Virus record (IMG/VR): IMGVR_UViG_3300043119_000443
DNA length: 64,000 nt
Reading direction: 5' to 3' (one strand)
Source of the DNA: a virus
Lineage: Duplodnaviria > Heunggongvirae > Uroviricota > Caudoviricetes
Part shown: piece after piece, positions 42,861-64,000 of the stretch
Layout: each line of letters begins with the position of its first letter
Numbering within the stretch: position 1 is the stretch's first letter
Made by a program: the position numbers and the translations under genes
Notes under the pieces: generated by a model
Told to the model about the DNA's origin: nothing
Seen by the model: the letters and a program-made list of their open reading frames with translations, nothing else
The model's database searches: none

Positions 42861-43399
42861 CTGCCGTAGTGAGCCTTCACAGCACGAATGGAATGAGAGA
42901 CGGTTGTGTGATGAATTGCATGACCGCCGCTGCCAATCCACTCACGGATGTTTTGTTCAGCATCATCCACCAGCAAATTTGGGGCGTCCACGAAACCATT
43001 TCGCGTAGCATAGTTCACCTTGTCCTTCCGCTGGCAGATGATGACACGCTCATGCGGAATGTGCAGAGTGTTCCGGGCGTATTCCAGCTTGACGCGGCGG
43101 ATCATGTCTTGGGTTTCGTCATCCTTCGCGAAGGACGGAAGCGCAGTGAGAAGATACGTTTCATCTCGCGCGAACGCGGCGGCGATCAGCTCGTGAGCGC
43201 CCGGCGTGACCGGCATCGTCAGCCAGAACTTCTCTGTCCGCATGATGTCATTGGTGGCTTTCTGGATGTCCTTCTGTTCCTGCGTCCACGTCGCCGGATC
43301 AGTTGTGTACCATGACCCCTCCCATGGCGGCACGCCAAGGTCGATCGCGTGGCCGCGGAAGTCACCGAGAGTATCGTCAACGTCGAGAAAAATGGTCAT
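42857..43399 (-). CDS. HAD-family 5'(3')-deoxyribonucleotidase
   Basis: HAD motif I FLDVDDTLGDF at N-terminus; size ~180 aa. Confidence 0.6.
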   Translation of the reverse strand: MTIFLDVDDTLGDFRGHAIDLGVPPWEGSWYTTDPATWTQEQKDIQKATNDIMRTEKFWLTMPVTPGAHELIAAAFARDETYLLTALPSFAKDDETQDMIRRVKLEYARNTLHIPHERVIICQRKDKVNYATRNGFVDAPNLLVDDAEQNIREWIGSGGHAIHHTTVSHSIRAVKAHYGR

Positions 43400-43755: not shown

Positions 43756-46016
43756 TTGCGATACCGATGCAGGATGTCAGCTTCAGATTTCAGCGGGAAG
43801 CCCGCGGCCCAAGGTGGCAATTGTTCCATGATCTTCTCGAACTCTTTCGCGTCGCCCTTGCTTCGCAGAACTTCGGCGATCAGCTCGTCATGGACGGTCA
43901 GGATCGGATGATATTTGCCGGTGCGATGACACTCGACCATGGCGTACGCCATCAGGTCGCGACAGATGCCTTGCACGATGTTCTCGACCAGCGCGCCGCC
44001 GTACGTGTGGGTCTTGCCCCACTGCTTAGTCAGGCCGTCAACGGCGTAGTATCGAATCGTCGGCTTGAAGACCGGGTCGCCGTTCCTGTCCTTGAACTTG
44101 GTTTCTTCCATCTTCAGGTATGCGAACGGGTACGACAGCATCCGGGCCGAAGGCAGACGGCAGAACAGGAAGTTGCCGACCTTCTTCCAGTGCAGTTTCT
44201 TGTTGCAGCACGGAACCCACTGACCGGGCTTCTGAAGCGCAGCGATCGCGGCGTTCTCGACTTCACGCCACGTCTTCTTCACCTCGTCATACTTGCCGCG
44301 ATAGCGATCGACGATGTACTTCGCCATGATCAGCGGGGGCAAAGTCTCTTCGCTGATGAAGTAGCCGGGCGCGTAGATCGCCGCCTGTTTGGGATCACGG
44401 AACAGCTCTTCCAGTTCCGCCCAGTCAGCCTCCGGCACGAGGGCTCGCGCCATCTCTTCGGTGAAGAAGATTTTGTACTTCGCACACGTCTCAAGGAACT
44501 TCACCGCGCCCATGCCGTAGCCAAGACCGAGGATCGCCTGCTTGCCTAGCTGGCGTTCTTTCTCGTCGGCCTTCGTGAGATGGCGGCGATAAATCTCCAT
44601 GGCGATGTCGAGATAGATGTCCTTGCCGCTCGCGAAGATGTCGAGGGCGATCTGGCAGTCCGCCAGCCACATGACGCCGCGCGCTTCGACAGCCGCGTAG
44701 TCGCCGACGGCCAGCTCGTATCCCATACGCGGAATGATCAGGCCGCGGATAACATCCGACAGAAAGTTGATCGGCATGTCGGACAAGCGCATCAGCTCAT
44801 CCACGGACATCAGTTTGATGTCGGCGGCGAGCTTGTCCATGTCCAGCTTGCCCTTGGCGGTACGATAGTTCTCGTGCGGCTTGCCGGGACGTTTGAGGTT
44901 GTGGAGCTGTAGACCCTTGCCGGACCAGCGCCCGGTTTGGGCTCCCCAGTACATGAGGTTCGAGCGGGCGAGATGATCCTCAAGACAACGGGCGACGGCC
45001 TTCTTGTACTTGGACGTGGTCGTGCGGTTGATATCCCGCACCAGCTCGACCACGCGACGCACGTGTGAGCTGATCTCCGGGTCTTCAAGCACCTTGTCCA
45101 GCGTCTCGCCTTGAAGGTCGTCCAGCTCTTTGTAAGCCAGATCGAGATGCTGTTTTATGCGATCCCGCGCGCCGCCGGTGACCGTCGGGTCTTGCATCAG
45201 CTCGCGCAATTCAGTGTTCATCACGTGCTTGGCGTCTTCAGCAAGACGCATAGCCGCTTCGGCAAGTTCCATGTCGATCTTGACGCCGCGTTCGTTCATC
45301 TCTTGATCGACGAACCAGATTTCCCATTCGAAGGGTATCAGGTCGGGCAGCTCTTTCGAGACATCGTATTCCGCCCGCACGTCCTGCTTGTTATATTCGG
45401 CGCAACGCAGGAACGTGGCCGTGTCACCGGGCCATCGGCGGGGATTGTCCTTGGTGGGATCACGGGGCTTGTAGAGCGACTTCAGCGCGTTGCTGCCCTC
45501 GCCCACGTCTTTCTGATGTTTGACGCTCAGAACCTTCGCCAATCGCTCCAGATCGCGCGGTAGTGCGTATGCCGCGCCTTTAGCTGCGGAGCATCGCCAC
45601 TGACGGATAGGTATCTGGGGCCAGCCCCATTTGCGTACGCAGATGCACGTCCACACAGCACGCTCGAACTCAGCGTTGTGTGCTTCGAAGATCAGGCCAT
45701 CAGCGATCGCCTTGACCAGAGACGGCGGACAGACCGGAAGGCCGGTCAGTTCATCCAGATCAGGCTTGGGCACCTCAATGGCGGGCACGAGAACGCGCGG
45801 CTGGCCTTTGCGTTCGCCGACCTTGTACGGCTCCCCCAGCACCGCCGGTTGAGCGACGGTTGGTCCCCAGAAGATGTCGGGATTTTCGATGGCGTCGCCG
45901 ATGGCCCACGCCAGCATCATCACCTCCGTAGAGGGATCGCCAGCGTAGCGCCAAGCGCCGACATCGATACCGACTTCAGATCGGGTTTCGAAGTCTAGGG
46001 TTACGTGCTTAGACAA
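43752..46016 (-). CDS. family A DNA polymerase with 3'-5' exonuclease domain
   Basis: Exo I LDFETRS; pol motif B RQLGKQAILGLGYGMG; motif C TVHDELI; apparent TTG start overlapping stop of upstream gene. Confidence 0.85.
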   Translation of the reverse strand: MSKHVTLDFETRSEVGIDVGAWRYAGDPSTEVMMLAWAIGDAIENPDIFWGPTVAQPAVLGEPYKVGERKGQPRVLVPAIEVPKPDLDELTGLPVCPPSLVKAIADGLIFEAHNAEFERAVWTCICVRKWGWPQIPIRQWRCSAAKGAAYALPRDLERLAKVLSVKHQKDVGEGSNALKSLYKPRDPTKDNPRRWPGDTATFLRCAEYNKQDVRAEYDVSKELPDLIPFEWEIWFVDQEMNERGVKIDMELAEAAMRLAEDAKHVMNTELRELMQDPTVTGGARDRIKQHLDLAYKELDDLQGETLDKVLEDPEISSHVRRVVELVRDINRTTTSKYKKAVARCLEDHLARSNLMYWGAQTGRWSGKGLQLHNLKRPGKPHENYRTAKGKLDMDKLAADIKLMSVDELMRLSDMPINFLSDVIRGLIIPRMGYELAVGDYAAVEARGVMWLADCQIALDIFASGKDIYLDIAMEIYRRHLTKADEKERQLGKQAILGLGYGMGAVKFLETCAKYKIFFTEEMARALVPEADWAELEELFRDPKQAAIYAPGYFISEETLPPLIMAKYIVDRYRGKYDEVKKTWREVENAAIAALQKPGQWVPCCNKKLHWKKVGNFLFCRLPSARMLSYPFAYLKMEETKFKDRNGDPVFKPTIRYYAVDGLTKQWGKTHTYGGALVENIVQGICRDLMAYAMVECHRTGKYHPILTVHDELIAEVLRSKGDAKEFEKIMEQLPPWAAGFPLKSEADILHRYRK

Positions 46017-46296
46017 GGCCGTCCAGACCGTCGATCGCCGTCTCGTAGGTTTCGAGAATTGCGTCCGCTTCTTCCCGCTCTTGGCGGTCCATGCGGCGGC
46101 GACGGATCACAGCGCGAAGCGCCTTCGTGTCATAGCCCATCGACTTCGCTTCGGCGTAGATGTCTTTCTGCGCGCCCTTGTGCTCGTCGATGTCCTCTTG
46201 GACGCGTTCGATCCGGGCAACCATATTGCGGAGCGCCTTCTTGGCGTTGTCGCCGAGGTTCGTGGCGACCGCATCGACGTTGATTTCGTCTTCCAT
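46009..46296 (-). CDS. DUF2312 / GapR-like nucleoid-associated DNA-binding protein
   Basis: RIERVQEDIDEHKGAQKDIYAEAKSMGYDTKALRAVIRRRRMDRQEREEADAILETY closely resembles the GapR core (...VYAEAKGNGFDVKVLKKVVRIRKQD...EEDAILDLY). Confidence 0.6.
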   Translation of the reverse strand: MEDEINVDAVATNLGDNAKKALRNMVARIERVQEDIDEHKGAQKDIYAEAKSMGYDTKALRAVIRRRRMDRQEREEADAILETYETAIDGLDGLV

Positions 46297-46586
46297 CAGA
46301 CCAGTCCTTCAAGTGAAACTTCAGGCGCATAGACGCGCACTTCGATGGTCGCCATCATACCCGTGATCATCTTCAGGTCAAGCGAATACTCGCTGCGACC
46401 GATGGCGTATGCGATCGTCTCGATCACACCGTCCATAGTTGTTTCATGGGCGAGGAAGATGACTGTGTCTCCGGCGCGCGACGTATCGTGGACGACCAAA
46501 TTCTTGTTGTGCCAGAGAAGGTCGCCGACGATGATCTTGTGCAGATCATCGCGTAGCTGGGTCAGTTCGTTCTTCGCGTGTTTCAA
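46296..46586 (-). CDS. hypothetical protein (96 aa, apparent TTG start)
   Basis: TTGA overlap with MazG stop; ATGA overlap downstream. Confidence 0.35.
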   Translation of the reverse strand: MKHAKNELTQLRDDLHKIIVGDLLWHNKNLVVHDTSRAGDTVIFLAHETTMDGVIETIAYAIGRSEYSLDLKMITGMMATIEVRVYAPEVSLEGLV

Positions 46587-47331: not shown

Positions 47332-47973
47332 CTAGAACAGACCGCCGCCGCCTTCGTTCGCGGCTTCATCGAAGCCGAGTTCCGAGGCGTCGAGGCCAGC
47401 GCCGCCGGAGAACGCTTTCGAAGCGTCCTCGGTGCCGCCGCCGAGACGTTCGCCGTCGCGGATGAAGGCGAGAGAGCGAAGGCCGAAGCTGACACCCTTG
47501 TTGCCTTTGGCTTCATAGGCGAAGCAGTTCAGCTTGGCTTGGACTTGCGCGCCGCTGTAGAACAGCGAATTGTCGTCCACGTCGATCACAGTGGCAACGC
47601 CGTTCTGGACGACGTACTTGCCCAGCGTCGGTTTCTGTTCCGTGGAAGCACGGAAGAAAATCTTGCCGGGTTCGAAGCCTTTGTGTTTCGACAGGTCCGC
47701 AGCGTCGCGGAACGGCCACTTGTAGTTCCCCTTCGGATTGCCGCTGGCGTCGAGGCATTCCGGGCCGAACTTCGCCACGAGGGTTTTCTTGGCGACATCC
47801 TTCATGGCGGCGAGCCGCTTCTGGTCGGAGGCCGACAGCTTCTTCGGGTCGAAGATGAAGGTGGAGCTGAACTTCATCACACCGTTGTCGTCAGGGCGGG
47901 CCTTATCGACGTTGATGAAAGAAGCGGTCACGATGGGGGACGTGACGATTTCGTTGACAGGTTTGGTAGACAT
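47332..47973 (-). CDS. putative ssDNA-binding protein (phage SSB-like, DUF2815-like)
   Basis: N-terminus MSTKPVNEIVTSPIVTASFINVDKARPDDNGVMKFSSTFIFDPKK and acidic Gly-rich C-terminal tail ...DASELGFDEAANEGGGGLF; RBS AAGGAAGG. Confidence 0.55.
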   Translation of the reverse strand: MSTKPVNEIVTSPIVTASFINVDKARPDDNGVMKFSSTFIFDPKKLSASDQKRLAAMKDVAKKTLVAKFGPECLDASGNPKGNYKWPFRDAADLSKHKGFEPGKIFFRASTEQKPTLGKYVVQNGVATVIDVDDNSLFYSGAQVQAKLNCFAYEAKGNKGVSFGLRSLAFIRDGERLGGGTEDASKAFSGGAGLDASELGFDEAANEGGGGLF

Positions 47974-48034
47974 AGTTTGTGCCTTCCTTGGCAGAGATGT
48001 TCGCTGAACGACATTGGACAGCGATAAGTAGTTC

Positions 48035-48412
48035 TTACTCGTCTTCTTCGGAGATAGCAAGTGCGGCATTATAGGCCGTCAGGGATGGCATCCGTCCATC
48101 CTTGAATGCTTTGCGCCAGTAGTCAGGCACGTTCGAGTGGTCGCCAGACTGCTTCGCCATGATCAGTTTGCGCGCCGCGGCTCGCACCTGCTCAGGTTCA
48201 TATGCAGCGGCTTCGCACGTCGCTTCGAATTCTTCCTTGTACTTCTTGTCGTAGAACCACAAGCGCGCTTCCGTCACGCACTTATGCTTGTCTTTCGCCT
48301 TCATGCCAGCGCCGACGAACCCCAGAGCGTCGCACAACATACGGAAGACTTTCGCTTTCCATAGCTGCGCCTCTGGCGATTGATCGTCATAGTCATTCGA
48401 GTTCGCTGGCAT
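48035..48412 (-). CDS. hypothetical protein (~125 aa)
   Basis: Start set at first ATG (MPANSNDYDD...) by residue count from ORF end 48499. Confidence 0.35.
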   Translation of the reverse strand: MPANSNDYDDQSPEAQLWKAKVFRMLCDALGFVGAGMKAKDKHKCVTEARLWFYDKKYKEEFEATCEAAAYEPEQVRAAARKLIMAKQSGDHSNVPDYWRKAFKDGRMPSLTAYNAALAISEEDE

Positions 48413-51192: not shown

Positions 51193-53769
51193 ATGACCCA
51201 ACCCGTCCCCAATGCGAAGTGGCTCCGACAATATCAGCCACTCGGGAACCGACTTATTCCTCTCTGTGATTATCGTGCGCTGTCCAAACAGGGCAAGCCT
51301 CTTGGTAAGACGCCATCCGTAAAGGACTGGACTAAGGACACATTCGAACACGCCAATATGGTTAAGTGGATGGAGGATGGCAATAACGTCGGCTTCCGTC
51401 TAGGCGACGGCTGGGGCGTTCTCGATTACGACCCAAGGCGCGATCCAGTCATTATGAAGTTGAAGCAAGAGAACGTCCACGATGATGTTCTCAGACTGCG
51501 TGAAACCGTCGGGCAGCGGAGCATCGACAGGCTTCTTGCTGACGTTGGTATTCAGCACGGCCAATACGCATTCGTCGAGACGGGCGGGCGCGGCCTGCAC
51601 ATCTACCTGAAAATCCCGGTGGGGTTCCGCGGGCGCGAACAGCTCAAGGAATATCCGGGCGTCGAATTCAAGCACAGCAACCGCCGCTACGTCGTCGCCA
51701 TGGGGTCAATCCATCCCGGCGATGAGAAGGAAGGCATTGCGCCGGGCAACTATTACAAGCCGGGCGACCAGTCGTTCGCGCTTATGAACACGATCTCATC
51801 GCCGCCGAAGCTCACGGAGCTTTTCAGCCACATCGATCCACCAGATTACGTCAAGCAAGCAGGAGAAGAGAGCTTTGGTCGGTTTTCGTCTTTCCAGCTT
51901 GCCGACACGCTCGCGTTGATTCCGCCGGAGACATTCCGGTCGGGGTCAGACCCATCATGGGAACAGTTCATGATGGCGTGCCACTGGATGACAGGCGGCA
52001 CGGGGCGTGAAGAATTCACTGACTGGTCCATCAGCGACCCGATGTACTCGGACCAAGATGAGATCATCCGCAGGCGTTGGGACAGTCTCACGCCGAAGGT
52101 GGACAGCCTGAAGACCGGGCTTGTCTTCAAGGTGCTCGCCCAGCTCAACATACCGCGCAGCAAATGGCCGACGGAAAGCGCGAGCGTCATGTTCGCGTCC
52201 GATCTGGACGACTTTTCGGCGCAAGAGCTTGAGGGCGAGATCATGCCCGAAAGCGCTGAAGCCAAGATCGTCAAGGCGATGAACGATGAGCACGCTCTCG
52301 TCATGATGACGACCGAACCCTTCTACATGGGCAACACCTATCACACGCTGTCCGGCACCGTTATTCCGGTGTTCCGCAAGCGCAGCGCCATGGTGGAGAT
52401 ATACGCGAACAAATCGCTGATAACCTCTGTCGCACAAGCGGGCGGTGAGAAGAAGATGGAGATGACCCACTTCGATTTCTGGCGTCGCCACCCCCAGCGC
52501 CGTCAATACATGGGCGTCGATTTCGCACCGGGCAGCGATCCGGAATTCATGACGCCCACTGGCATGTACTATAACACATGGCGCGGCTGGCCGTTCGATC
52601 CGGAGTTCCGCGGCAACGGAAACTGGGACAGGCTGAAAGAGATATTTTTCGAGAACATCTGCGACCGCGACAGAGAGATGTTCGACTACGTCATGAAGTG
52701 GATGGCGTACTCCGTCCAGCATCCGGCGGGCGCGCAGCGCGTGGCGTTCGTCATGCAGGGCGACAAAGGTCTTGGCAAGTCGATGTTCGCGAACGCATGG
52801 CGCGATATGTTCGGCAAGCACGGCCTGACGACCGATGAGAAGGACGACGTGTTCGGTCGCTTCAACAACCAGATGTCATCGACGCTCGCGCTCTTCCTTG
52901 ACGAAGCCCTGTTCGCCGGTGACAAATCCATCGACGGCAAGGTCAAGCAGCGTATCAACTCTCCGACGATCCGCGTCGAAGAGAAGTACATGCCCCAAGT
53001 CAATATCAAGAACCATCTGAAGTTCATGATCGCGTCCAACGATCAGCACGTGGTCGCGGCAACGCAGGGCGAGCGCCGTTACGTCGTGACGGATGCCAAG
53101 ATGAACATCCGCAAGCCGAATGCGATCTATGAGAAGGCGCATGAAGACCTGTACGGCACGCGCCAGCGCCCGCACACCGACGGCATTCAGGCGATGTTCT
53201 ATGACCTGATGCACCATGAGATCGGCGACTTCGAACCGGAGCGCGATCGCGTCACCTCGTCGGCGCTTCGCCGCCAAGTCCGTATCGAGTACGGCGACCG
53301 GGCCGAATGGTGGATCGAACGCATCGTCAACGAATCGATGCCGATGATGTTTGACCCCTCACCGACATACCGGGCGACTAAGGGCGTTGTAGCTAACTGG
53401 CATAAGCGACCGATTGCAGTGCCCGTCACTGCATTGCGTGAATCCATGAAGCTGTTTATGGGTGATCGGCTCAAGGGCGAACTACTGTTCGACTTCAAGG
53501 CGCGCTTCCTGACCGCCATCCAGTTCATGCTCCCGGAGACGACGGAGAGCAAGCGTCGGATGAAGCTCCCGGAAGGGATCGACTTCATGGGCGTCGATGC
53601 CGCAGAGAACGGGATGGCCGAATGCATCGTTCTGCCGCCGCTCCCCGTGTGCCGGGCGCACGTCGAAAACCTGTTTGGCAATCTCACCGGCGAAGTGATG
53701 CAGGATTTCGAGGCCGATGATCGATATGGTGTGGATGACATCGGCGACGATCTGGATGGTCTTGTCTGA
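51193..53769 (+). CDS. bifunctional primase-polymerase / D5-P4-type SF3 helicase
   Basis: N-terminal prim-pol-like region (GFRLGDGWGVLDYDPRRD...GRGLHIYLKIP), C-terminal Walker A GDKGLGKS and D5_N-like region. Confidence 0.8.
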   Translation: MTQPVPNAKWLRQYQPLGNRLIPLCDYRALSKQGKPLGKTPSVKDWTKDTFEHANMVKWMEDGNNVGFRLGDGWGVLDYDPRRDPVIMKLKQENVHDDVLRLRETVGQRSIDRLLADVGIQHGQYAFVETGGRGLHIYLKIPVGFRGREQLKEYPGVEFKHSNRRYVVAMGSIHPGDEKEGIAPGNYYKPGDQSFALMNTISSPPKLTELFSHIDPPDYVKQAGEESFGRFSSFQLADTLALIPPETFRSGSDPSWEQFMMACHWMTGGTGREEFTDWSISDPMYSDQDEIIRRRWDSLTPKVDSLKTGLVFKVLAQLNIPRSKWPTESASVMFASDLDDFSAQELEGEIMPESAEAKIVKAMNDEHALVMMTTEPFYMGNTYHTLSGTVIPVFRKRSAMVEIYANKSLITSVAQAGGEKKMEMTHFDFWRRHPQRRQYMGVDFAPGSDPEFMTPTGMYYNTWRGWPFDPEFRGNGNWDRLKEIFFENICDRDREMFDYVMKWMAYSVQHPAGAQRVAFVMQGDKGLGKSMFANAWRDMFGKHGLTTDEKDDVFGRFNNQMSSTLALFLDEALFAGDKSIDGKVKQRINSPTIRVEEKYMPQVNIKNHLKFMIASNDQHVVAATQGERRYVVTDAKMNIRKPNAIYEKAHEDLYGTRQRPHTDGIQAMFYDLMHHEIGDFEPERDRVTSSALRRQVRIEYGDRAEWWIERIVNESMPMMFDPSPTYRATKGVVANWHKRPIAVPVTALRESMKLFMGDRLKGELLFDFKARFLTAIQFMLPETTESKRRMKLPEGIDFMGVDAAENGMAECIVLPPLPVCRAHVENLFGNLTGEVMQDFEADDRYGVDDIGDDLDGLV

Positions 53770-57100: not shown

Positions 57101-58475
57101 TGTCGTTGGACGTTCGGCTGGCACGACTGGCGACGTTGCGGATATCGCCGCGGCGACCAACGGTCACTTCCTCGGTCGCTCGGGCGGCACGCTGTCGTTC
57201 CAAGCAATCACCGGCGCGCTCGTCACCAACGTCGCAGCGGGCAACATCGTCGCGACCACTGTGCAGGATGCGATCAACGAGCTGGATGGCGACAAGGCCG
57301 GGCTCACCCTCGCTAACATTTTCACTATCGGTCAATTTATTCGCACGACTACGGCTGTTGCGCTCAACTTGGATGGCGACGGGGCCTCTCCCGCAATCCG
57401 TCAAACCCGTTATGGTGCGGTAAGCGGCGCTTCGAACTTCGACCAGCGTAAGGCGCGCGGTTCGTTCGCCTCACCGACGGCGGTGCTTACCAACGACATC
57501 CTCTCGCAGAACATTTCGTCAGGGTACGGCGGAACGACGTTTCAACAGGCGTTTGTAGCGGCAGTTACGGTCATCGAGACTACTCCGTCCGACACGGCGA
57601 TGGGCTCGCGATGGACGGGCGAACTTTCGGCTATTGGTAGCGTCACGCCGACCGAGATTTTCAGGTGGGAAGTCGCTACCGGCTTCTCAATGTACGGTGC
57701 CAACCCCGTTATCGACAACAACCGTATCTTCCGTCCGCGGTCCTACACCGTCTCGACGCTCCCGACTGTCACCACGACGGGTATCATCCACTGCTCCGAT
57801 CTCGGCGGCGGTGCCGGTACGCTCATCTCGGACGGCACGGGCTGGACGCGTGAAGACACCACTGGCACGATCACGATCGCGACCGACGCCGGACACACCT
57901 TCACGTGGGATCGCCTAACGGACGCTCCGGTCACGCGCGGCAACGCTACGCTGACTGCGAACCGCACTGTTACGCTGTCCGGAACCGGATGCCGCAACGG
58001 CGACCGCGCCATGTTCGTCCGACTCGGTGGCGGTGCGTTCAACTGGAGCATCGCGGGCGGCACGACCTTCGACCTGACCGCCGCGAACCAGTTCTGCACG
58101 TTCGAGCACGACGGCACGTCTTGGAACATCATCGACGCGGGCAACATCTCCATCTCTGGCGGTAGCTCTGGCGTGGCCGTGGAAGAAGAAGGCGGTGCCG
58201 TCGCCACGGCGACCACTTTGAATTTCATCGGCTCCGGCGTTACCGCTACCAACGCAGGCGGCGGACAGGTGGATGTCACTATCTCTGCGGGCGGTGGTGT
58301 GGACGTGGAAGACGAGGGCGCTGTCGCTCTCGCCGCGGCCACTACCTTGAATTTCGTCGGTGCTGGTGTTACTGCTACGAACGCTGGCGGCGGACAGGTG
58401 GATGTCACCATTCCGGGGAACTCCGGACCTTCTCTTGGTCTGTATCTCGGTATCCGTAGCTCAATGTACTTTTAA
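54159..58475 (+). CDS. giant repeat-rich fibre-like protein (1438 aa)
   Basis: Gly/Thr/Ala-rich; ~8 tandem ~63-aa units (DRLIGRDTASTGDPEEITVGGGIEFTTTGGIQTSAHTGDVTKAAGGTATTIANDAVSFAKMQNIA...) and duplicated N-/C-proximal domains. Confidence 0.7.
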   Translation: MTTKFYPDPVSTGVLPNSITNNDLVQVPALTVKGNQTNATADVNDIAASTNDRLFARVSDVLAFTQLTNGMVATNTIGLDKLADAAAVSVLGRSAGTGGARADITASANGQFLGRSGGTLSFQAITGALVSNTPAGNLIATDAQGAINELDSEKAGLTLANTFTQDNTFNGYVSAASLRIGANEVVDANRIFRPRSYTISTVPSVTATGLIHVSDLGGGGATLQSNGSEWNRVKEEGTINVTVDANLTFTWDRLTDAPVTRANVALTADRTVTLSTTGCANGDRAAFVRSAAATGAFNWNIAGNTTTALAAALDWVVYEFDGTQWNMIQKFSAGGGGGGTYTAGAGLDLVADEFSIETGGVVEGMLANDAVTFAKMQNIATDRLIGRDTAGTGDPEVITVGGGLEFTGSGGIQTSAFTGDVTKSAGGTALTIGNDAVSFAKMQNIASDRLIGRDTASTGDPEEITVGGGIEFTTTGGIQTSAHTGDVTKAAGGTATTIAANAVSDAKFRQSAALSVVGRSANSTGNVADIAAGANDRLLTRVADVLAFTQITNGMIPVNTVGVDKLAVSATDRLVGRDTASAGAGEEITVGGGLEFTGSGGIQTTAFTGDVTKTAGGTALTIANDAVSFAKMQNIATDRLIGRDTASTGDPEEITVGGGIEFTTTGGIQTSAHTGDVTKAAGGTATTIANDAVTNAKAANMAARTVKVNATNASADPQDLQGTTALHVLRVNAAGDGLEFGAVTSGTTYTAGAGLDLVADEFSIEAGGVVTTMLANDNVTFAKMQNIASDRLIGRDTASTGDPEEITVGGGIEFTTTGGIQTSAFTGDVTKTAGGTAQTIANNAVSDAKFRQSAGVSVVGRSANSTGNVADITAAANDRILTRVSDVLAFTQLSDGMVPTNTISATKMALTATDRLIGRDTASGGAGEEITVGGGLVFTGTGGIQTTAFTGDVTKTLGGTALTIANNAVTDGKFRQSAATSVVGRSAGTTGDVADIAAATNGHFLGRSGGTLSFQAITGALVTNVAAGNIVATTVQDAINELDGDKAGLTLANIFTIGQFIRTTTAVALNLDGDGASPAIRQTRYGAVSGASNFDQRKARGSFASPTAVLTNDILSQNISSGYGGTTFQQAFVAAVTVIETTPSDTAMGSRWTGELSAIGSVTPTEIFRWEVATGFSMYGANPVIDNNRIFRPRSYTVSTLPTVTTTGIIHCSDLGGGAGTLISDGTGWTREDTTGTITIATDAGHTFTWDRLTDAPVTRGNATLTANRTVTLSGTGCRNGDRAMFVRLGGGAFNWSIAGGTTFDLTAANQFCTFEHDGTSWNIIDAGNISISGGSSGVAVEEEGGAVATATTLNFIGSGVTATNAGGGQVDVTISAGGGVDVEDEGAVALAAATTLNFVGAGVTATNAGGGQVDVTIPGNSGPSLGLYLGIRSSMYF
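55180..57070 (+). repeat. in-frame tandem coding repeats inside giant gene (approximate bounds)
   Basis: ttcgcgaagatgcagaacatcgc recurs at 55273, 55471, 56053, 56497; unit ~190 nt, nested in larger ~440-580 nt super-repeats. Confidence 0.7.
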
Positions 58476-58487
58476 GGAAACGCAACC

Positions 58488-58901
58488 ATGGTCGCCAACG
58501 TCGAACCGATTTTCACCCACATCCCGAACATCGGGATCGCGGACGCATGTACCGCCGCCAACACGACGAAAGACCTCACGTCGGGCACGAGCTATCTCGC
58601 GTTCACGGCGGGCGCAGACGGGGCGTTCCTTCAGAAGCTCACCATCAGGCCGAAGGGTACGAACGCGGTCACGGTTATGCGCGTGTTCCTCAACAACGGC
58701 GGTGCGACGACTACGGCCACGAACAACGTGCTGTTTGCAGAACTCAGCTTGCCCGCCACGACCAACGTCGAAAACGCTTCGATCGTGGGCTACGAGTTGC
58801 CGATGAACATCGCTCTCCCGGCTGGCTGGCGCGTCTACGTCACGCTCGGCTCGGTCGTCGTCGGTGGCTACGCAGTGTCGGGTGTCGGTGGAGACTACTA
58901 A
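58488..58901 (+). CDS. hypothetical protein (137 aa)
   Basis: TAATG-coupled to first Gly-rich gene. Confidence 0.4.
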   Translation: MVANVEPIFTHIPNIGIADACTAANTTKDLTSGTSYLAFTAGADGAFLQKLTIRPKGTNAVTVMRVFLNNGGATTTATNNVLFAELSLPATTNVENASIVGYELPMNIALPAGWRVYVTLGSVVVGGYAVSGVGGDY

Positions 58902-59749
58902 TGCTCTCCAACACACTAAACATCCGTAACGAGAAGCGGACGTTCAAGTTCTTCTCTCGCGGGGTGGACTACCAACCGTATAGTCCGTCGCCGGAAGCCG
59001 TCGCTATTCAGATTTTCGCAGTCGGAGCTGGCGGCGGCGGCGGACGAGGCTTCACGGGCATCGCGGGCGCGGCTCGCGGTGGTGGCGGCGGGGGCGGCGG
59101 GGGTGGTATCCTCCGGGCTGTCCTGCCGACGTTCCTGCTCCCCGATACAATCTTCCTGAAGCCGGGCATAGGCGGTGCGACTACCGTCGCAGGTAGCGCC
59201 TCCGTCATCAGCCTTCGCCCCATCGACGCAACGGCCAACAATATCTATACGGTCGGCGGTGGCGGTGCAGGCGGTACTGGTACGGGCGCTGCGGCGGGCT
59301 CTGCGGGCTCCGCAGGCGTCATCGGTACCAACGGCATATTCTCGGACCTCGGTGTGTTCCTGTCGATCGCTGGCCTCGCTGGCGTGGCAGGCGGCGGTGT
59401 TGCTGCTGCCGGTGTCAGCATCACACCGACGCGTATCGTCTCGGGCGGCGCGGGCGGCGCGGGCTGTACCGGCGCGGACCTCGCGGGTGGCAACATCACC
59501 GCATCGGGCTTCTTCCCCCTTATCTCCGGTGGGGGCGTCTCTGGCGGCGAAGGCTTCAGCGGTATCACGTCTTGGAAACCATTCTTCGCATCGGGCGGGT
59601 CGGGTGCTGGTTCGTTCAACGCTGGCCCCGGTGGGCGTGGTGGCCCCGGCGGCATAGGTTCCGGTGGCGGTGGCGGCGGCGCGGGCACAACCGGCGGCGA
59701 CGGCGGACGTGGCGGCGACGGCATCATCTTCATCACCGAACTCTTCTAA
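58901..59749 (+). CDS. glycine-rich protein (282 aa), paralog 1
   Basis: KRTFKFFSRGVDYQPYSPSPEAVAIQIFAVGAGGGGG...GGDGGRGGDGIIFITELF; long poly-Gly tracts. Confidence 0.55.
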   Translation: MLSNTLNIRNEKRTFKFFSRGVDYQPYSPSPEAVAIQIFAVGAGGGGGRGFTGIAGAARGGGGGGGGGGILRAVLPTFLLPDTIFLKPGIGGATTVAGSASVISLRPIDATANNIYTVGGGGAGGTGTGAAAGSAGSAGVIGTNGIFSDLGVFLSIAGLAGVAGGGVAAAGVSITPTRIVSGGAGGAGCTGADLAGGNITASGFFPLISGGGVSGGEGFSGITSWKPFFASGGSGAGSFNAGPGGRGGPGGIGSGGGGGGAGTTGGDGGRGGDGIIFITELF

Positions 59750-59765
59750 TCGACGGGAGACAGTA

Positions 59766-60620
59766 ATGTTCTACGATCCGTCGAACATGCGCCAAACCAA
59801 GCGCACGTTTAAGTTCGTCTCTCGCGGTGTGGACTGGCAGGCGTTCCTTCCCTCGCCGGAAGCCGTCGCGCTTGAAATCTTCATGGTCGGTGGCGGCGGC
59901 GGTGGCGGCAATGGCTTCTCACGGGGCGCGGGCGCTCCGGGCGGTGGTGGCGGCGGCGGTGGTAGCGGCGGTATCTTCCGGGCTGTAATCCCGACCATTC
60001 TTCTGCCAGATACGATCTTCCTGAAACCGGGCATAGGTGGCGCTGCTGTCACTGCGGGTAGCGCCTCCATCATCGGTCTGCGCGCGGCTGACTCCACTAC
60101 TTCCAACATATACACGGTGGGTGGAGGTTCTAATGGTGGTACGGGCACGGCAGCGGCAGCGGGCACTCTAGGCAACGGGGGCGCGGTCGGCACCAGTGGC
60201 CTGTTCTCTGACTACGCTGACTTCCTCGCGATCGCTGGTCAGGCTGGCGTAGCCGGGGGCGCGCAGACTGGTGCAGTGGGAGCCAGCGTGACACCGTCGC
60301 GTATCGTGACGGGCGGCGCTGGCGGTGCTGGTTGCACCACAACCGACTTCGCGGGTGGCAACATCACCGCGACCGGGCTTATCCCCCTAGTGTCGGGCGC
60401 TGCGGGCGGCACTGGCGAATCGGGCAGCAACGGCCTTTCGAACTTCAAACCCTTCCTGTCCTGCGGCGGTGCGGGCGGTGGCTCGCGCAACACCTTCAGC
60501 GCTGGCGCGGGTGGTCAAGGTGGCCCCGGCTCTGGCGGCGGTGGCGGTGGTGCGGGTGTCACCGGCGGCGCGGGTGGACGTGGCGGCGACGGCGTGATAT
60601 TCATAACTGAAATCTTCTAA
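59766..60620 (+). CDS. glycine-rich protein (284 aa), paralog 2
   Basis: Same architecture as 58901..59749, colinear along whole length (KRTFKFVSRGVDWQAFLPSPEAVALEIFMVGGGGGG...GGAGGRGGDGVIFITEIF). Confidence 0.55.
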   Translation: MFYDPSNMRQTKRTFKFVSRGVDWQAFLPSPEAVALEIFMVGGGGGGGNGFSRGAGAPGGGGGGGGSGGIFRAVIPTILLPDTIFLKPGIGGAAVTAGSASIIGLRAADSTTSNIYTVGGGSNGGTGTAAAAGTLGNGGAVGTSGLFSDYADFLAIAGQAGVAGGAQTGAVGASVTPSRIVTGGAGGAGCTTTDFAGGNITATGLIPLVSGAAGGTGESGSNGLSNFKPFLSCGGAGGGSRNTFSAGAGGQGGPGSGGGGGGAGVTGGAGGRGGDGVIFITEIF

Positions 60621-60634
60621 GGGAAGGAACCCCC

Positions 60635-61132
60635 ATGGCCTTTACTGAAACGACCCACTCGACGACGTTCTACGCCCAGATGTACGATCCGGCCAAACCG
60701 GAGCGTGGCTTCGGCGCGTTCGTCAATCGCGTCACGGTCAAGGAATACGAGGATGGCACTCGCGTCGTCGAGCCGGAAGTCCAGAAGGACATGGCCGTCG
60801 CCGTGAAAGAGGGTATCACCCTCCCGTCGGTGCTGGCCGAATTCAACATGATCTCCGCGGCGCGCGTCGTGGAGCTGGAAGCGATCGTCAAGGTTGAAGA
60901 TGACGAGAAAGCCGCTCTCAAGTCTCAGGTTGAGCGTATGACCGCCCAGATCGTCGAGCTGCGCGAAGTCCTGATCGAGACGGCGCAGGCATTGCGCGAC
61001 GCCACGAACGGTGCTGAAGTCGCTCGGGTGGACGCCTCCCTGATGTCCAGCGCAGACGCGATCGCCACGGTTGATGCGATCAAGGCCGACAACAACAAGT
61101 CGATCTGGAACCCGCTTAGCTGGTTCCGTTGA
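60635..61132 (+). CDS. hypothetical protein (165 aa)
   Basis: Follows Gly-rich paralogs; coiled-coil segment. Confidence 0.4.
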   Translation: MAFTETTHSTTFYAQMYDPAKPERGFGAFVNRVTVKEYEDGTRVVEPEVQKDMAVAVKEGITLPSVLAEFNMISAARVVELEAIVKVEDDEKAALKSQVERMTAQIVELREVLIETAQALRDATNGAEVARVDASLMSSADAIATVDAIKADNNKSIWNPLSWFR

Positions 61133-61139
61133 TACAAAC

Positions 61140-61167
61140 CCTCGGTACTTGGCCGTAAGTACCGAGG
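61140..61167. terminator. bidirectional terminator hairpin between convergent genes
   Basis: CCTCGGTACTT-ggccgt-AAGTACCGAGG perfect 11-bp stem. Confidence 0.5.
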
Positions 61168-61169
61168 AA

Positions 61170-61616
61170 TCACTTCTTCAGCTTGACCCAACGGACCTTG
61201 CCGCCGGTCTTGGTGTCGTACTTGCACGCGATCCGAACGGCCTGTTGGGGTGTCGCCCCCATTTCGAGCGCGCCCAGCGCCACGTCAGCGCCCGTGCCAG
61301 CGACAAAGAAGTCACCCTCGACGACGTGATAGCCAAACAGATCGTGGAACTCGACGTTACCGTCCGGCCTGACGAGGATCGCTTGCGCCTCGCGCCCTTC
61401 GACGCCGAAACCGGGGCGGTCCCCATATTCCTCATCGTTCATGAACCAGTCAACGATCCGGGTCGCTAGGGAGGCCGTCCCAGCCACGCCTATGAGCGCG
61501 CCGTCCTTGGCACGTCGGAATACCTTCCGCATCGACATCTCTCTTGTAGTGCCATAGGTGAGCTGGGAATCGCCCGCCATCACCCCATGCTTCCGAGAGA
61601 AGACAATCGTGGTCAT
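61170..61616 (-). CDS. HslV-like N-terminal-nucleophile peptidase (proteasome beta-type fold)
   Basis: MTTIVFSRKHGVMAGDSQLTYG...KVFRRAKDGALIGVAGTASLA...GTGADVALGALEMG parallels the HslV Thr1-TIV..R..G.V..GD.Q.T.G.......KV.RL...V..GFAG and GSG...A.GA blocks. Confidence 0.6.
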   Translation of the reverse strand: MTTIVFSRKHGVMAGDSQLTYGTTREMSMRKVFRRAKDGALIGVAGTASLATRIVDWFMNDEEYGDRPGFGVEGREAQAILVRPDGNVEFHDLFGYHVVEGDFFVAGTGADVALGALEMGATPQQAVRIACKYDTKTGGKVRWVKLKK

Positions 61617-62005
61617 ATCAACCCGTCCAATTCATCATCAGGCGTTAAATCTGCAATGATGCAATCGTGCTTGTCATCGACGATTTGGTCAAGATCGACG
61701 GGGGTGTCATCCCCCAGATCGTCCTGTTCGATGGGGGTACTATCCCCTTTCTTGGAACGCCTTTTCGACTGGGTGCCATGCCCCGTATCTATGAGCCCGG
61801 CCCGTGTGTCATTTATGTCGCCGACGTAGGTGTCGATCGTCTTGCCGCCGCGTTTGCTGTCAAGGTACTTTCGCACCTTGGCCTGAATTTCCTTGGAGGG
61901 GCACCGGATGGTGAGGATGTCGGAGCCGCCGTATTCCTTCACGGCTTGGTCGCAAACTTCCCTGATCTGTTCGTCGGTCGAAAGCCAGTTGTCCGCCATG
62001 TGCAT
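61613..62005 (-). CDS. hypothetical protein co-transcribed with HslV-like gene (130 aa)
   Basis: 4-nt ATGA overlap with HslV-like gene; acidic C-terminus. Confidence 0.4.
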   Translation of the reverse strand: MHMADNWLSTDEQIREVCDQAVKEYGGSDILTIRCPSKEIQAKVRKYLDSKRGGKTIDTYVGDINDTRAGLIDTGHGTQSKRRSKKGDSTPIEQDDLGDDTPVDLDQIVDDKHDCIIADLTPDDELDGLI

Positions 62006-62192: not shown

Positions 62193-62321
62193 AATTTGGA
62201 TGAGGCCGCGGAAAAAGTCAATCTTGAAATGCTGGGAGGCCGCGGGGGACTTCAGACTCGGGACGCTGGGAGGCCGCGGGGGACTTCAGACTCGGCCATG
62301 GTTTGCATGAAATTTGGATGA
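62193..62321. repeat. tandem 31-bp direct repeat (x2, 34-bp period) flanked by 11-bp direct repeats AATTTGGATGA
   Basis: GCTGGGAGGCCGCGGGGGACTTCAGACTCGG at 62231-62261 and 62265-62295; AATTTGGATGA at 62193-62203 and 62311-62321. Confidence 0.7.
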
Positions 62322-62334
62322 AAAATCCGGCGCG

Positions 62335-62560
62335 GCGTTATGGTTAACGCGAATTAAGGTTAATGAAACGAAACCGCCGTTAGGGTTAATAGCAACGATC
62401 GCTGTTAATCTTAACACGTGGCGGTGGTCGCGTTAAGGAATCGCGTTAATCTTAACAGGTCGTACCCTATGTGATGTGGGCCGGGGTAGGGAATTAACCC
62501 TAACTCCCGGCCCGGTGTAAAAATCGGCCGATTTGCCATTAACTATCCGCCATTGGACAT
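62335..62560. promoter_or_regulatory. AT-rich intergenic cluster of TTAA / TTAAC boxes (iteron-like), candidate origin or regulatory hub
   Basis: ATGGTTAAC (62340), TTAA x2 (62354, 62360), GGTTAAT (62384), GTTAATCTTAACA x2 (62404-62416 and 62445-62457), TTAACCCTAAC (62484-62494), CCATTAACTAT (62537-62547). Confidence 0.45.
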
Positions 62561-63219: not shown

Positions 63220-64000
63220 TCATGCCGCCACACGCGCCTTGGGAGCGTCCACAAGCCGGTCGCTCTCGACGATGACCAGCGCCGACTTGGCGCGCGTCAC
63301 AGCGACGTAACACAGGTTGCGTTCCTGCTGCTGCTGCCACGGTTGCGTGGCCCATTTGGACGGGCACAGGGAGCGGTCCAGCCAGAAGACGCGGTCAGCC
63401 TCCAGACCCTTCGCCTTGTGGATCGTGCAAAGCGTGGTCGCGTTGCGCACGTCTTCAAACAGCGTCCGGATGATGTCCAGAAGCGCCGGGATGGTCCGCG
63501 CGTTTTCGTCCAGCGAGTCGATCAGGCAAAGGATCGCGTCCACCTTGTCGGCGACTGCCGCCGCCTTGGCCGGTTGCTTCGCAGCGGTCGCTTTCTCGAC
63601 CTCACGGTCGCGGAACGCCGAAAGCTTTTCGACCAGCCGGTCGATGCCTTTCGCGCGCTGCTTTTCGATCAGCTTCACCAGACCCTCGCCGATCTCTTTT
63701 CCGAGAATGCGGACCGGCTTGCGCGCCTTCAGCATTTTGTAGCCGAGGGCGATCAGGGGCTTGGTATTGCGGCAGACGACAAGGTCAGCCGGGGCGAGCA
63801 TGTCCAGCGACCAGTCCGCCATAGTGTCAACCGTGCCTTCCGGGGCCGTGGACGCGGGCAGGATGTGGCCGACCCACTGGCGCGCGTAGTTCACCACGGA
63901 TTGCGCACAGCGATAGGACACGCTCAGGGGGAGCGTGGACGCGTTGAATTCCGAGGCGATCATGCCGAGGCTTTCCGAGTCCGCGCCGCGAAAGCCATAG
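63220..64000 (-). CDS. UvrD/Rep-like SF1 helicase, C-terminal part (5' end outside window)
   Basis: Motif VI YVAVTRAK, TIHKAKGLE; translation upstream of first Met continues open to window edge with YGFRGAD (UvrD motif III). Confidence 0.65.
   Translation of the reverse strand, partial: YGFRGADSESLGMIASEFNASTLPLSVSYRCAQSVVNYARQWVGHILPASTAPEGTVDTMADWSLDMLAPADLVVCRNTKPLIALGYKMLKARKPVRILGKEIGEGLVKLIEKQRAKGIDRLVEKLSAFRDREVEKATAAKQPAKAAAVADKVDAILCLIDSLDENARTIPALLDIIRTLFEDVRNATTLCTIHKAKGLEADRVFWLDRSLCPSKWATQPWQQQQERNLCYVAVTRAKSALVIVESDRLVDAPKARVAA

What the first reader, a model, noticed from the sequence alone, without database searches (positions are those of the whole stretch)
61170..62005. Phage-encoded HslV-like Ntn peptidase in a two-gene operon
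A 148-aa protein begins MTTIVFSRKHGVMAGDSQLTYG, i.e. a Thr1 nucleophile after Met removal and the HslV/proteasome beta-subunit block order. It is translationally coupled (ATGA) to an upstream 130-aa acidic protein of unknown function. No HslU-like ATPase is nearby, and the operon lies beside the iteron-like region, far from the head genes, so it is unlikely to be the prohead protease. It could be a regulatory or anti-host protease module.
Basis: partly seen in the sequence, partly recalled or inferred. Interest (0 to 1): 0.65.

Follow-up and report, generated by a model that had tools for sequence, protein, structure and literature searches.

The report
Phage proteasome-like peptidase (PPH family)
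The gene is a real phage copy of a small proteasome/HslV-like threonine peptidase from a family named in 2021 whose function is untested, and the acidic protein upstream looks like a DNA-replication accessory protein, not the peptidase's dedicated partner.

Summary
Two minus-strand genes, 61170-61616 (148 aa) and 61613-62005 (130 aa, more likely 128 aa starting at 61999), overlap by ATGA. A strong terminator hairpin follows them.

The 148-aa protein is a proteasome-fold Ntn hydrolase. It matches PHROG 1040 at E=8e-32, its AlphaFold model has pLDDT 90, and Foldseek aligns it to HslV, BPH and 20S beta subunits at TM about 0.7. Thr1, Asp17, Lys33 and Gly47 equivalents are conserved. [quoted passage not shown] 2021). 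It fails the HslV and Pfam Proteasome score cut-offs. Similar genes occur in 257 phage records. No experimental study turned up.

The "two-gene module" reading is weak:
- The upstream protein belongs to a very narrow family.
- In sister phages the peptidase slot holds an SPFH/Band_7 gene instead, or is separated from the upstream gene by a homing endonuclease.
- The upstream protein's acidic tail ends in ...DELDGLI. The phage's gp2.5-type SSB, primase, GapR-like protein and a 96-aa protein carry the same C-terminal tip.

That points to a T7-style replisome docking peptide. This is a new member of a known kind, of modest interest.

The parts
61170..61616 (-). PPH-family proteasome-like N-terminal-threonine peptidase, 148 aa
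   Evidence: PHROG 1040 E=8e-32. AF2 model pLDDT 90.1, pTM 0.86. Foldseek to HslV, BPH and 20S beta at TMq about 0.7, E about 1e-8. Family profile against PDB HslV E=1.7e-9. Conserved M1, T2, D16, K31, G46 and G107-x-G109. HslV helix H2 region deleted.
61613..62005 (-). Upstream acidic protein, 130 aa (probably 128 aa starting at 61999). It has a conserved ~62-aa N-terminal domain, a basic linker with GDxTP motifs, and a disordered acidic tail ending ...DDELDGLI-COOH.
   Evidence: ORF. Homologue alignment with an invariant N-domain and an invariant G-L before the last residue. No hit in Pfam, PHROGs, NCBIfam or PADLOC. Only 3 clusters among 1.84 billion representative proteins. AF2 gives a low-confidence alpha-beta-alpha-beta N-domain with the rest disordered.
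61613..61616 (-). ATGA stop/start overlap, indicating translational coupling
   Evidence: Read from the sequence. The same 4-nt overlap is present in L001, L004, L016 and L019.
61139..61168 (-). Intrinsic-terminator-like hairpin that ends the operon. It sits between this operon and the oppositely oriented, converging gene 60635-61132.
   Evidence: 12-bp stem with 6 GC pairs, followed by TTTGTATCAA.
62235..62295 (.). Two exact copies of a 27-nt element at 34-nt spacing, about 230-290 bp upstream of the operon. Candidate regulatory or origin element.
   Evidence: 2 exact matches against 0 expected by chance. The core of the element is kept at the same relative position in L001-3, L010-13 and L016-18.
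47332..48069 (-). T7 gp2.5/Enc34-type SSB ending ...NEGGGGLF-COOH (same class of C-terminal tip)
   Evidence: Pfam PF10991 E=1.4e-22. PHROG 112 'Gp2.5-like ssDNA binding protein' E=4e-31. Tip seen and conserved in L026.
51193..53769 (+). Primase (PrimPol/DUF5906 type) ending ...DDIGDDLDGLV-COOH
   Evidence: PHROG 1156 DNA primase E=2e-56. Tip seen. Relatives' primases end DLDGLV, DIDGLV, MSGLF, TSGLF or FGGLF.
46009..46296 (-). GapR-like DNA-binding protein ending ...IDGLDGLV-COOH
   Evidence: Pfam PF10073 E=5.8e-24, covering residues 18-89 of 95. Tip seen and conserved in L026.
46296..46586 (-). 96-aa protein of unknown family ending ...EVSLEGLV-COOH
   Evidence: Tip conserved in L026.

Best explanation
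[quoted passage not shown] PPH proteins are compact relatives of HslV and BPH with the proteasome-beta fold.

Proposed mechanism for the peptidase. Host methionine aminopeptidase removes Met1 and exposes Thr2 as the nucleophile. Thr2 works with the Asp17, Lys33 and Gly47 equivalents (D16, K31, G46 here) to hydrolyse peptide bonds. The gene is the last one in a leftward transcription unit. That unit lies among the replication genes and starts behind a conserved repeat region. I infer that the protein is an accessory, dispensable peptidase that assembles on its own, as HslV and BPH do, and acts on host or phage proteins during the replication phase. I infer that it has no dedicated phage ATPase.

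Proposed role for the upstream protein. The upstream 128/130-aa protein is most likely not a protease subunit. It carries the same acidic C-terminal tip, ...[DE]x[DG]-G-L-[VIF]-COOH, as the phage's gp2.5-type SSB, its primase, a GapR-like protein and a 96-aa protein. I infer that it docks on the same replisome hub as they do. The precedent is T7, where the acidic tails of gp2.5 and gp4 both bind the T7 DNA polymerase.

Shown: the fold, the catalytic residues, the operon anatomy, the family distribution, the swappable downstream slot and the shared tip. Inferred: peptidase activity, oligomeric state, the target, the timing of expression, and what the tip binds.
For: Family and fold:
- PHROG 1040 E=8e-32.
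- AF2 model pLDDT 90.1.
- Foldseek PDB top hits are 20S beta, HslV and BPH, TMq 0.66-0.78.
- In BFVD the best match is a 146-aa Caulobacter phage protein, TM 0.88.
- The family profile hits HslV at E=1.7e-9.
- Catalytic positions are invariant or nearly so across 13 homologues.
- The alignment to HslV places a 14-residue HslV insertion at helix H2, and the model has only a 5-residue helix there. The PPH description in PMC8665760 gives about 140 residues, no H2, and occurrence in Caudovirales.

Accessory status and loose link to the upstream gene:
- 257 phage records hold a homologue. The six contexts inspected had varied neighbours and no annotated ATPase or counterpart of the upstream protein next to it.
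- The upstream protein's family has only 3 clusters in 1.84e9 representative proteins and none in 185,579 genomes.
- In L005, L006, L014 and L021 the slot after the upstream gene holds an SPFH/Band_7 gene and no PPH.
- In L018 an HNH/endonuclease VII gene sits between the two genes.
- The upstream protein's N-domain is 78-97% identical to the window's whatever lies downstream.

Shared tip:
- Six of 541 ORFs end in G-L-[VIF] against 0.65 expected. Five have acidic tails; the sixth, the helicase (...EMRGLI), does not. All six are replication-module genes or, for the upstream protein, lie beside that module.
- The tips are conserved in relatives.
- Roseobacter phage RDJL6 shows the same principle with a different tip, DFPDDL, on its primase and on a 119-aa protein.
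- The acidic tails of T7-type SSBs are implicated in binding to the polymerase and the primase-helicase (PMC5686142).
Against: - No activity, oligomer or substrate has been shown for any PPH, so 'peptidase' rests on conserved residues and fold alone.
- Translational coupling of the two genes is conserved in at least four sub-lineages whose peptidases are only 48-50% identical. That is what a functional pair would also show.
- An acidic linker ending in hydrophobic residues is also how HslU and proteasomal ATPases dock on their peptidases, so a tip-peptidase contact is not excluded.
- Only 3-12 kb around the SPFH variants could be read, so a peptidase gene elsewhere in those genomes is not excluded.
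- The hub that binds the tip is not identified.
- The upstream protein's structure model is poor (pLDDT 53).
Confidence: 0.6

Rival explanations
1. The pair is a two-component protease. The upstream protein is an activator or adaptor whose flexible acidic tail inserts its C-terminal ...LDGLI into the peptidase ring, in the way the HslU C-terminal tail activates HslV or HbYX tails open the 20S proteasome. It might also tether the peptidase to the replisome.
For: The ATGA coupling is conserved in several sub-lineages. The tail architecture is an acidic linker followed by a hydrophobic C-terminus. No ATPase is encoded in the window.
Against: The same tip sits on the SSB, primase, GapR-like and 96-aa proteins. 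The upstream protein keeps its tip and its N-domain where the peptidase is replaced by SPFH. No relative of the upstream protein turned up outside this clade, while the peptidase occurs in 257 phage records. A homing endonuclease can separate the two genes.
Confidence: 0.12
2. The phage peptidase replaces or mixes with host HslV and uses host HslU (ClpY) as its unfoldase, redirecting host ATP-dependent proteolysis.
For: HslV is the best natural sequence match among solved structures. The N-terminus MTTIV is the same as in HslV. The phage encodes no ATPase of its own for it.
Against: Helix H2 is deleted; from textbook HslVU and 20S architecture, not tested here, H2 lies on the HslU-facing apical side. 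HslV model scores are far below cut-off: 17.8 against 157.75 bits and 21 against 137 bits. HslV Lys28, which from my recollection of the literature pairs with the HslU C-terminus, appears to align by eye (no tool result) to a variable, non-basic position here.
Confidence: 0.13
3. It is a morphogenetic (prohead or virion-maturation) protease.
For: No canonical prohead protease was recognised between the portal and major capsid genes. In Sinorhizobium phage phiM5 the homologue lies between the terminase and portal genes.
Against: The gene lies about 44 kb from the head genes, in a unit of opposite orientation that ends with its own terminator. The head module has a separate scaffold protein, and the capsid protein aligns end to end with its family, which leaves no room for a cleaved prodomain. 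Sister phages with the same gene layout around this locus carry SPFH in its place. Most homologues lie among early or accessory genes.
Confidence: 0.05
4. It is not a degradative protease. It could be a specific ligase or transpeptidase (as connectase is within the proteasome-like family), a small-molecule amidase, or a catalytically silent binding protein.
For: The proteasome-like family includes the non-degradative enzyme connectase (PMC8665760). The lack of H2 could prevent closed ring assembly. No PPH has been characterised.
Against: The full proteasome-type catalytic set is conserved, and the closest folds are the degradative HslV, BPH and 20S beta subunits.
Confidence: 0.1

Closest known systems
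[quoted passage not shown]
   Same: About 140-150 residues. Proteasome-like beta-sandwich with Thr1/Asp17/Lys33/Gly47. No propeptide, no helix H2 and no C-terminal S12/H5 elements. Encoded by a tailed phage.
   Different: At most 36% identical to any protein in the phage record collection. Here it is coupled to a clade-specific upstream gene. I could not compare it directly with the paper's representative, WP_042125023.1.
HslV (ClpQ), the peptidase of the bacterial HslUV protease
   Same: Homologous fold, an identical N-terminal MTTIV, the same catalytic residues, and the best natural sequence match among solved structures.
   Different: About 27 residues shorter, with helix H2 deleted. Fails the NCBIfam HslV and Pfam Proteasome cut-offs. 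No hslU gene adjacent or anywhere in the window.
BPH (beta-proteobacterial proteasome homologue, PDB 5OVS/5OVT)
   Same: A group I proteasome homologue with no known ATPase partner. Foldseek E=1e-8, TMq 0.71.
   Different: BPH is about 185-200 aa with full helices and is a cellular protein. Sequence identity is 17-18%.
Acidic C-terminal tails of T7 gp2.5 (SSB) and gp4 (primase-helicase), and the bacterial SSB C-terminal tip
   Same: The comparison concerns the upstream protein. A disordered acidic tail ends in hydrophobic residues, and the same tip is carried by the SSB and the primase of one phage.
   Different: The tip sequence is G-L-[VIF], not ...DF or DDDIPF. Here it is also carried by a GapR-like protein and two small proteins. 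The binding partner is unknown.
HslU C-terminal tail and proteasomal HbYX/GQYL activator tails
   Same: A flexible tail with a hydrophobic C-terminus, encoded next to a proteasome-like peptidase.
   Different: The upstream protein has no ATPase domain. The tip is shared with replication proteins and is kept in relatives that lack the peptidase at this locus.

Membership tests
PPH (Fuchs et al. 2021) | Proteasome-like Ntn-hydrolase fold (beta-sandwich core S1-S11) | tested here: met
   AF2 model pLDDT 90.1. Foldseek to 20S beta, HslV and BPH with probability 1.00 and TMq about 0.7.
PPH (Fuchs et al. 2021) | Catalytic Thr1, Asp17 and Lys33 plus the oxyanion Gly47; no propeptide | tested here: met
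   M1-T2, D16, K31 and G46 are invariant or nearly so in 13 homologues and align to HslV T1, D17 and K33.
PPH (Fuchs et al. 2021) | Compact, about 140 residues, lacking helix H2 and the C-terminal S12/H5 | tested here: met
   148 aa. The DSSP assignment on the model shows H1 at 48-60, only a 5-residue helix at 72-76, then H3 and H4. HslV has a 14-residue insertion at H2 relative to the family profile.
PPH (Fuchs et al. 2021) | Encoded by tailed phages, or prophage regions, of Proteobacteria | tested here: inconclusive
   The phage context is clear: terminase, portal, capsid, tape measure, DNA polymerase and primase genes. The host is not known. The GapR-like gene and the best hits in Caulobacter and Brevundimonas phages suggest an alphaproteobacterium.
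PPH (Fuchs et al. 2021) | Clusters by sequence with the PPH representative WP_042125023.1 and not with AAH, CPH or RPC | not testable with these tools
   That sequence could not be fetched. As a surrogate, PHROG 1040 matches at E=8e-32, and the closest viral structures are 131-146-aa phage proteins at TM 0.88-0.89.
HslV (ClpQ) proper | Scores above the curated HslV and Proteasome model cut-offs | tested here: not met
   NF003964: 21 against 137 bits. TIGR03692: 17.8 against 157.75 bits. Pfam PF00227: 19.3 against 22.4 bits.
HslV (ClpQ) proper | Operon partner HslU (an AAA+ unfoldase) | tested here: not met
   No HslU-like match. The strict Walker A pattern occurs only in the terminase and the primase. 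The upstream gene has no ATPase features.
T7-type replisome docking tail (for the upstream protein) | Disordered acidic C-terminal tail with a hydrophobic terminal residue, shared by the SSB and the primase of the same phage | tested here: met
   The tail (residues 89-130) has pI 4.05. The tips are ...LDGLI (upstream protein)...LDGLV (primase) and ...GGGLF (gp2.5-type SSB). Six ORFs carry the tip against 0.65 expected.
T7-type replisome docking tail (for the upstream protein) | The tail binds the phage DNA polymerase or another replisome hub | not testable with these tools
   This needs a binding assay or multimer modelling. Only single chains can be modelled here.

The most novel reading that the evidence does not exclude
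The upstream protein is a replisome-tethering adaptor. Its N-terminal domain holds the product of the gene downstream of it (the proteasome-like peptidase, or SPFH in sister phages). Its SSB-like C-terminal tip brings that cargo to the phage replication machinery. The peptidase would then remodel or clear host or phage proteins at replication forks. This would be the first function assigned to a viral proteasome homologue and a new way of targeting a protease.
Probability: 0.07. Interest if true: 0.75.

Novelty: new member of a known kind. Interest (0 to 1): 0.33.

Why it matters
PPH is described as the first truly viral branch of the proteasome family. It is widespread, present in 257 records of the phage collection used here. 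I found no experimental work on it in the searchable literature. This window adds three modest points about the family:
- The gene sits in an accessory slot that sister phages fill with an SPFH/Band_7 gene. This argues that it is dispensable and has no morphogenetic role.
- It needs no conserved phage-encoded partner.
- Its operon mate belongs to a set of replication proteins that share a C-terminal docking peptide. This shared tip is a testable, T7-like organising principle in a poorly studied group of siphoviruses, and a distant relative (RDJL6) uses a different tip in the same way.

None of this overturns current understanding. The main value is to classify the finding correctly and to name cheap experiments.

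Tried and rejected
- DNA-level searches of the locus and of 24 kb around it against 50,697 phage records found nothing. The phage has no close cultured relative; its primase is at most 31% identical to those of Roseobacter, Pseudomonas and Xanthomonas phages.
- Single-sequence phmmer against the PDB gave only weak N-terminal HslV hits, plus spurious hits to designed helical repeat proteins. The family profile was needed.
- Pfam, PHROGs, NCBIfam and PADLOC gave nothing for the upstream protein.
- An exhaustive profile search with the upstream protein's N-domain found only its own narrow clade, plus low-complexity repeat proteins that I regard as spurious.
- No prophage copy of the upstream protein exists in 185,579 reference genomes.
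- The upstream protein's AF2 model was poor (pLDDT 53), and its Foldseek hits (E of 0.4 or worse) are meaningless.
- No sigma-70-like promoter was found upstream of the operon.
- I considered the tip to be a beta-clamp-binding motif (QL[SD]LF). I rejected this as unsupported, because the Gln and the spacing of hydrophobic residues do not fit; this rests on my own knowledge and was not tested.
- I considered the tip to be a PPH-docking peptide. I consider it unlikely because the tip persists in relatives that lack the peptidase at this locus.
- Literature searches for any experimental work on phage HslV-like or PPH proteins returned none.
Full report
**1. The observation**

One is 61170..61616 (148 aa, MTTIVFSRKHGVMAGDSQLTYG...). 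The other is 61613..62005 (130 aa). The stop of the upstream gene and the start of the downstream gene overlap as ATGA at 61613-61616.

Homologues of the upstream protein begin MADNW or MSDNW, and an identical database protein is 128 aa. Its true start is therefore probably the ATG at 61999.

Directly after the peptidase stop there is a 12-bp hairpin followed by a T-run, at 61168..61139 on the minus strand. The next gene, 60635-61132, lies on the other strand and converges on this point. The peptidase gene is therefore the last gene of its transcription unit.

**2. What the 148-aa protein is**

Sequence evidence:
- It matches PHROG 1040, 'peptidase HslV family', at E=8e-32 over its whole length.
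- It scores below the curated cut-offs of Pfam Proteasome (19.3 against 22.4 bits).
- It scores far below the NCBIfam HslV models (21 against 137 bits, and 17.8 against 157.75 bits).
- A profile of 13 homologues hits solved HslV structures at E=1.7e-9.

Structure evidence:
- The AlphaFold2 model is confident (pLDDT 90.1, pTM 0.86).
- Foldseek places it with 20S beta subunits, HslV and BPH, at E about 1e-8 and TMq 0.66-0.78. No solved structure is more than 24% identical.
- Among predicted viral structures, the best matches are 131-146-aa Caulobacter phage proteins at TM 0.88-0.89.

Catalytic residues: in the homologue alignment M1-T2, D16, K31, G46 and G107-x-G109 are invariant or nearly so. 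They align to HslV T1, D17, K33 and the glycine-rich loops.

Helix H2: relative to HslV there is a 14-residue gap exactly where helix H2 lies. The model has only a 5-residue helix there, in a region of lower confidence.

These features are about 140-150 residues, a full catalytic set, no propeptide, no H2, no C-terminal extension, and a tailed-phage origin. Together they are the description of PPH in Fuchs, Alva & Lupas 2021 (PMC8665760). It is therefore a relative of HslV but not an HslV. I could not fetch the paper's PPH representative for a direct comparison.

**3. How common it is**

A tblastn search finds homologues in 257 phage records, all below 36% identity. The hosts include Caulobacter, Brevundimonas, Xanthomonas, Escherichia, Vibrio, Pseudomonas and Rhizobium. 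The records annotate these genes as 'HslV family peptidase', 'nucleophile aminohydrolase', 'proteasome subunit beta' or 'putative protease'.

The neighbouring genes differ from phage to phage:
- next to the terminase and portal genes in Sinorhizobium phage phiM5;
- before the holins in Escherichia phage Ivi;
- among small hypothetical genes in OP1, Medea1, Caulobacter phage C2 and a Vibrio phage.

None of these contexts has an annotated ATPase or a counterpart of the upstream protein. Five literature searches found no experimental work on these proteins.

**4. The phage and the position of the locus**

The window is a siphovirus-like phage genome of about 60% GC. It encodes:
- terminase, portal, scaffold, major capsid protein and tape measure on the plus strand at 12-26 kb;
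- ribonucleotide reductase, a helicase, a family-A DNA polymerase, a DUF2800-type exonuclease, a gp2.5-type SSB and a PrimPol-type primase at 38-54 kb.

There is no DNA-level match to any phage record. The primase is at most 31% identical to those of Roseobacter, Pseudomonas and Xanthomonas phages.

A GapR-like gene, together with best peptidase hits in Caulobacter and Brevundimonas phages, hints at an alphaproteobacterial host.

The head module has its own scaffold protein, and the capsid protein aligns end to end with its family. A prohead protease is therefore not required.

A strict Walker A pattern occurs only in the terminase and the primase, and an HslU probe found nothing.

**5. Is the pair a module?**

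In favour of a module: close and intermediate relatives keep the two genes coupled with the same 4-nt overlap. These are L001-3 and L010-13, and L004, L016, L019 and L020. Their peptidases are 86-92% and 48-50% identical to the window's.

Against a module:
- In L018 an HNH/endonuclease VII gene sits between the two genes.
- In L005, L006, L014 and L021 the gene after the upstream protein is a 184-aa SPFH/Band_7 protein, again overlapping the stop. No peptidase is found in the 3-12 kb that could be read.
- The upstream protein's N-terminal domain is 78-97% identical to the window's regardless of what follows it.
- The upstream protein's family is tiny. It has three clusters at 50% identity among 1.84 billion representative proteins, two IMG/VR contigs, four metagenome contigs (two of which are the IMG/VR contigs again), and none in 185,579 reference genomes.

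The peptidase is thus widespread without this partner, and the partner exists without the peptidase. The position after the partner behaves as a swappable accessory slot.

**6. What the upstream protein looks like**

It has three parts:
- a conserved domain of about 62 residues, predicted at low confidence as alpha-beta-alpha-beta, with two invariant cysteines;
- a basic linker carrying repeated G-D-x-T-P motifs;
- a disordered acidic tail (pI 4.05) that always ends [DE]-[LI]-x-G-L-[VI]-COOH.

Scanning all ORFs of at least 60 aa in the window, six of 541 end in G-L-[VIF], against 0.65 expected. All six are real genes, in or next to the replication region:

| Gene | Coordinates | C-terminus |
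|---|---|---|
| Upstream protein | 61613-62005 | ...DDELDGLI |
| Primase | 51193-53769 | ...DDLDGLV |
| gp2.5/Enc34-type SSB | 47332-48069 | ...NEGGGGLF |
| GapR-like protein | 46009-46296 | ...IDGLDGLV |
| 96-aa protein | 46296-46586 | ...SLEGLV |
| Helicase | 41343-42941 | ...EMRGLI (not acidic, less convincing) |

The tips are conserved in relatives. The primases of L004, L005, L014, L017 and L021 end DLDGLV, MSGLF, TSGLF, DIDGLV and FGGLF. The SSB, the 96-aa protein and the GapR-like protein of L026 keep theirs.

In the distantly related Roseobacter phage RDJL6, the primase and a 119-aa protein share a different tip, DFPDDL-COOH.

T7-type SSBs have acidic C-terminal tails. In T7 these tails are implicated in contacts with the polymerase and the primase-helicase (PMC5686142). 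The simplest reading is that the tip is a lineage-specific docking peptide for a common replisome hub, and that the upstream protein is one of its clients. The identity of the hub is unknown. Naming the family-A polymerase as the hub is an inference by analogy only.

**7. How the peptidase most likely works**

Shown: the fold, the catalytic set, Thr directly after Met1, the operon position, and the apparent absence of the gene at this locus in sister lineages.

Inferred: Met1 is removed by methionine aminopeptidase (Thr is a permissive second residue), and Thr2 then acts as the nucleophile, as in HslV.

Helices H3 and H4 are present. From textbook 20S and HslV architecture, not tested here, they build the ring-ring contacts. 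H2, on the apical ATPase-facing side, is missing. I therefore favour a self-assembling peptidase that does not dock HslU in the canonical way. I cannot test this.

Its targets, whether host proteins or phage proteins during the replication phase, remain open.

I put about 0.9 on 'PPH-family Ntn hydrolase'. I put about 0.6 on the whole picture, that is, an accessory stand-alone peptidase plus a replisome-tip protein that is not its obligate partner.

**8. Rivals**

- **Two-component protease, with tail docking as for HslU or HbYX tails (0.12).** The conserved coupling keeps this alive. The shared tip and the SPFH swap weaken it.
- **Hijack of host HslU (0.13).** HslV homology and the lack of a phage ATPase keep this alive. 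The H2 deletion weakens it.
- **Morphogenetic protease (0.05).**
- **Non-degradative enzyme or inactive protein (0.10).**

**9. Verdict**

The protein is a new, divergent member of a family that was already described. The family is experimentally uncharacterised. The new information concerns context: the swappable slot, and the shared replication tip on the operon mate. Interest is modest.

Noticed in passing
window 41343-42941(-), 46009-46296(-), 46296-46586(-), 47332-48069(-), 51193-53769(+), 61613-62005(-): Six replication-region proteins end in G-L-[VIF]-COOH, five of them after an acidic stretch, against 0.65 expected by chance. They are the helicase, a GapR-like protein, a 96-aa protein, the gp2.5-type SSB, the primase and the peptidase's upstream neighbour. 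This looks like a shared docking peptide.
   Followed up: yes
L025 (Roseobacter phage RDJL6) 19989-22400(+) and 15356-15715(-): The primase and a 119-aa hypothetical protein both end in DFPDDL-COOH. This is the same principle of a shared C-terminal tip, with a different sequence, in a distant relative.
   Followed up: partly
L005 6423-6977, L006 6423-6977, L014 462-1016, L021 1321-1875: In sister phages the slot after the upstream gene holds a 184-aa SPFH/Band_7 protein (Pfam E=2.6e-12) instead of the peptidase. In cells, SPFH proteins often partner with proteases, so the swap may not be random.
   Followed up: partly
L018 1129-1575: An HNH/endonuclease VII-type gene (PHROG 3322, E=2e-28) is inserted between the upstream gene and the peptidase gene. 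L017 has a gap of similar size there.
   Followed up: partly
window 62235-62295: Two exact copies of a 27-nt element (GGAGGCCGCGGGGGACTTCAGACTCGG) lie 34 nt apart. The core is conserved at the same place upstream of the operon in ten related loci. It may be an operator, a phage promoter or an origin element.
   Followed up: partly
window 62335-62510: An AT-richer stretch is dense in GTTAA(T/C) motifs, with direct repeats (GTTAATCTTAACA, twice) and inverted repeats (GTTAGGGTTAAT / ATTAACCCTAAC).
   Followed up: no
window 61700-61790 (upstream protein residues ~73-102): The linker carries three G-[DH]-x-T-[PQ] motifs whose G, T and P residues are conserved across homologues. Their meaning is unknown.
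   Followed up: no
window 15207-15734(+): A GH108 lysozyme with a peptidoglycan-binding domain (endolysin PHROG 315, E=6e-48) lies between the portal and scaffold genes. This is an unusual place for an endolysin.
   Followed up: no
window 54159-60620(+): A 1438-aa protein with DUF5907 repeats and two tandem paralogous glycine-rich proteins lie between the primase and the peptidase operon, far from the main tail module. The paralogues share ...KRTFKF.SRGVD.Q...SPEAVA..IF.VG and have a weak 'minor tail protein' hit. Relative L004 lacks this block.
   Followed up: no
window 63220-64000(-): A UvrD-like helicase gene (PHROG 1967, E=6e-49) appears to be open to the end of the window. Only its C-terminal half is present; the full gene is about 496 aa in relatives.
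   Followed up: partly
window 46009-46296(-): The phage encodes a GapR-like DNA-binding protein (PF10073, E=6e-24). As far as I know, this family is typical of alphaproteobacteria and their phages, which gives a clue to the host.
   Followed up: no
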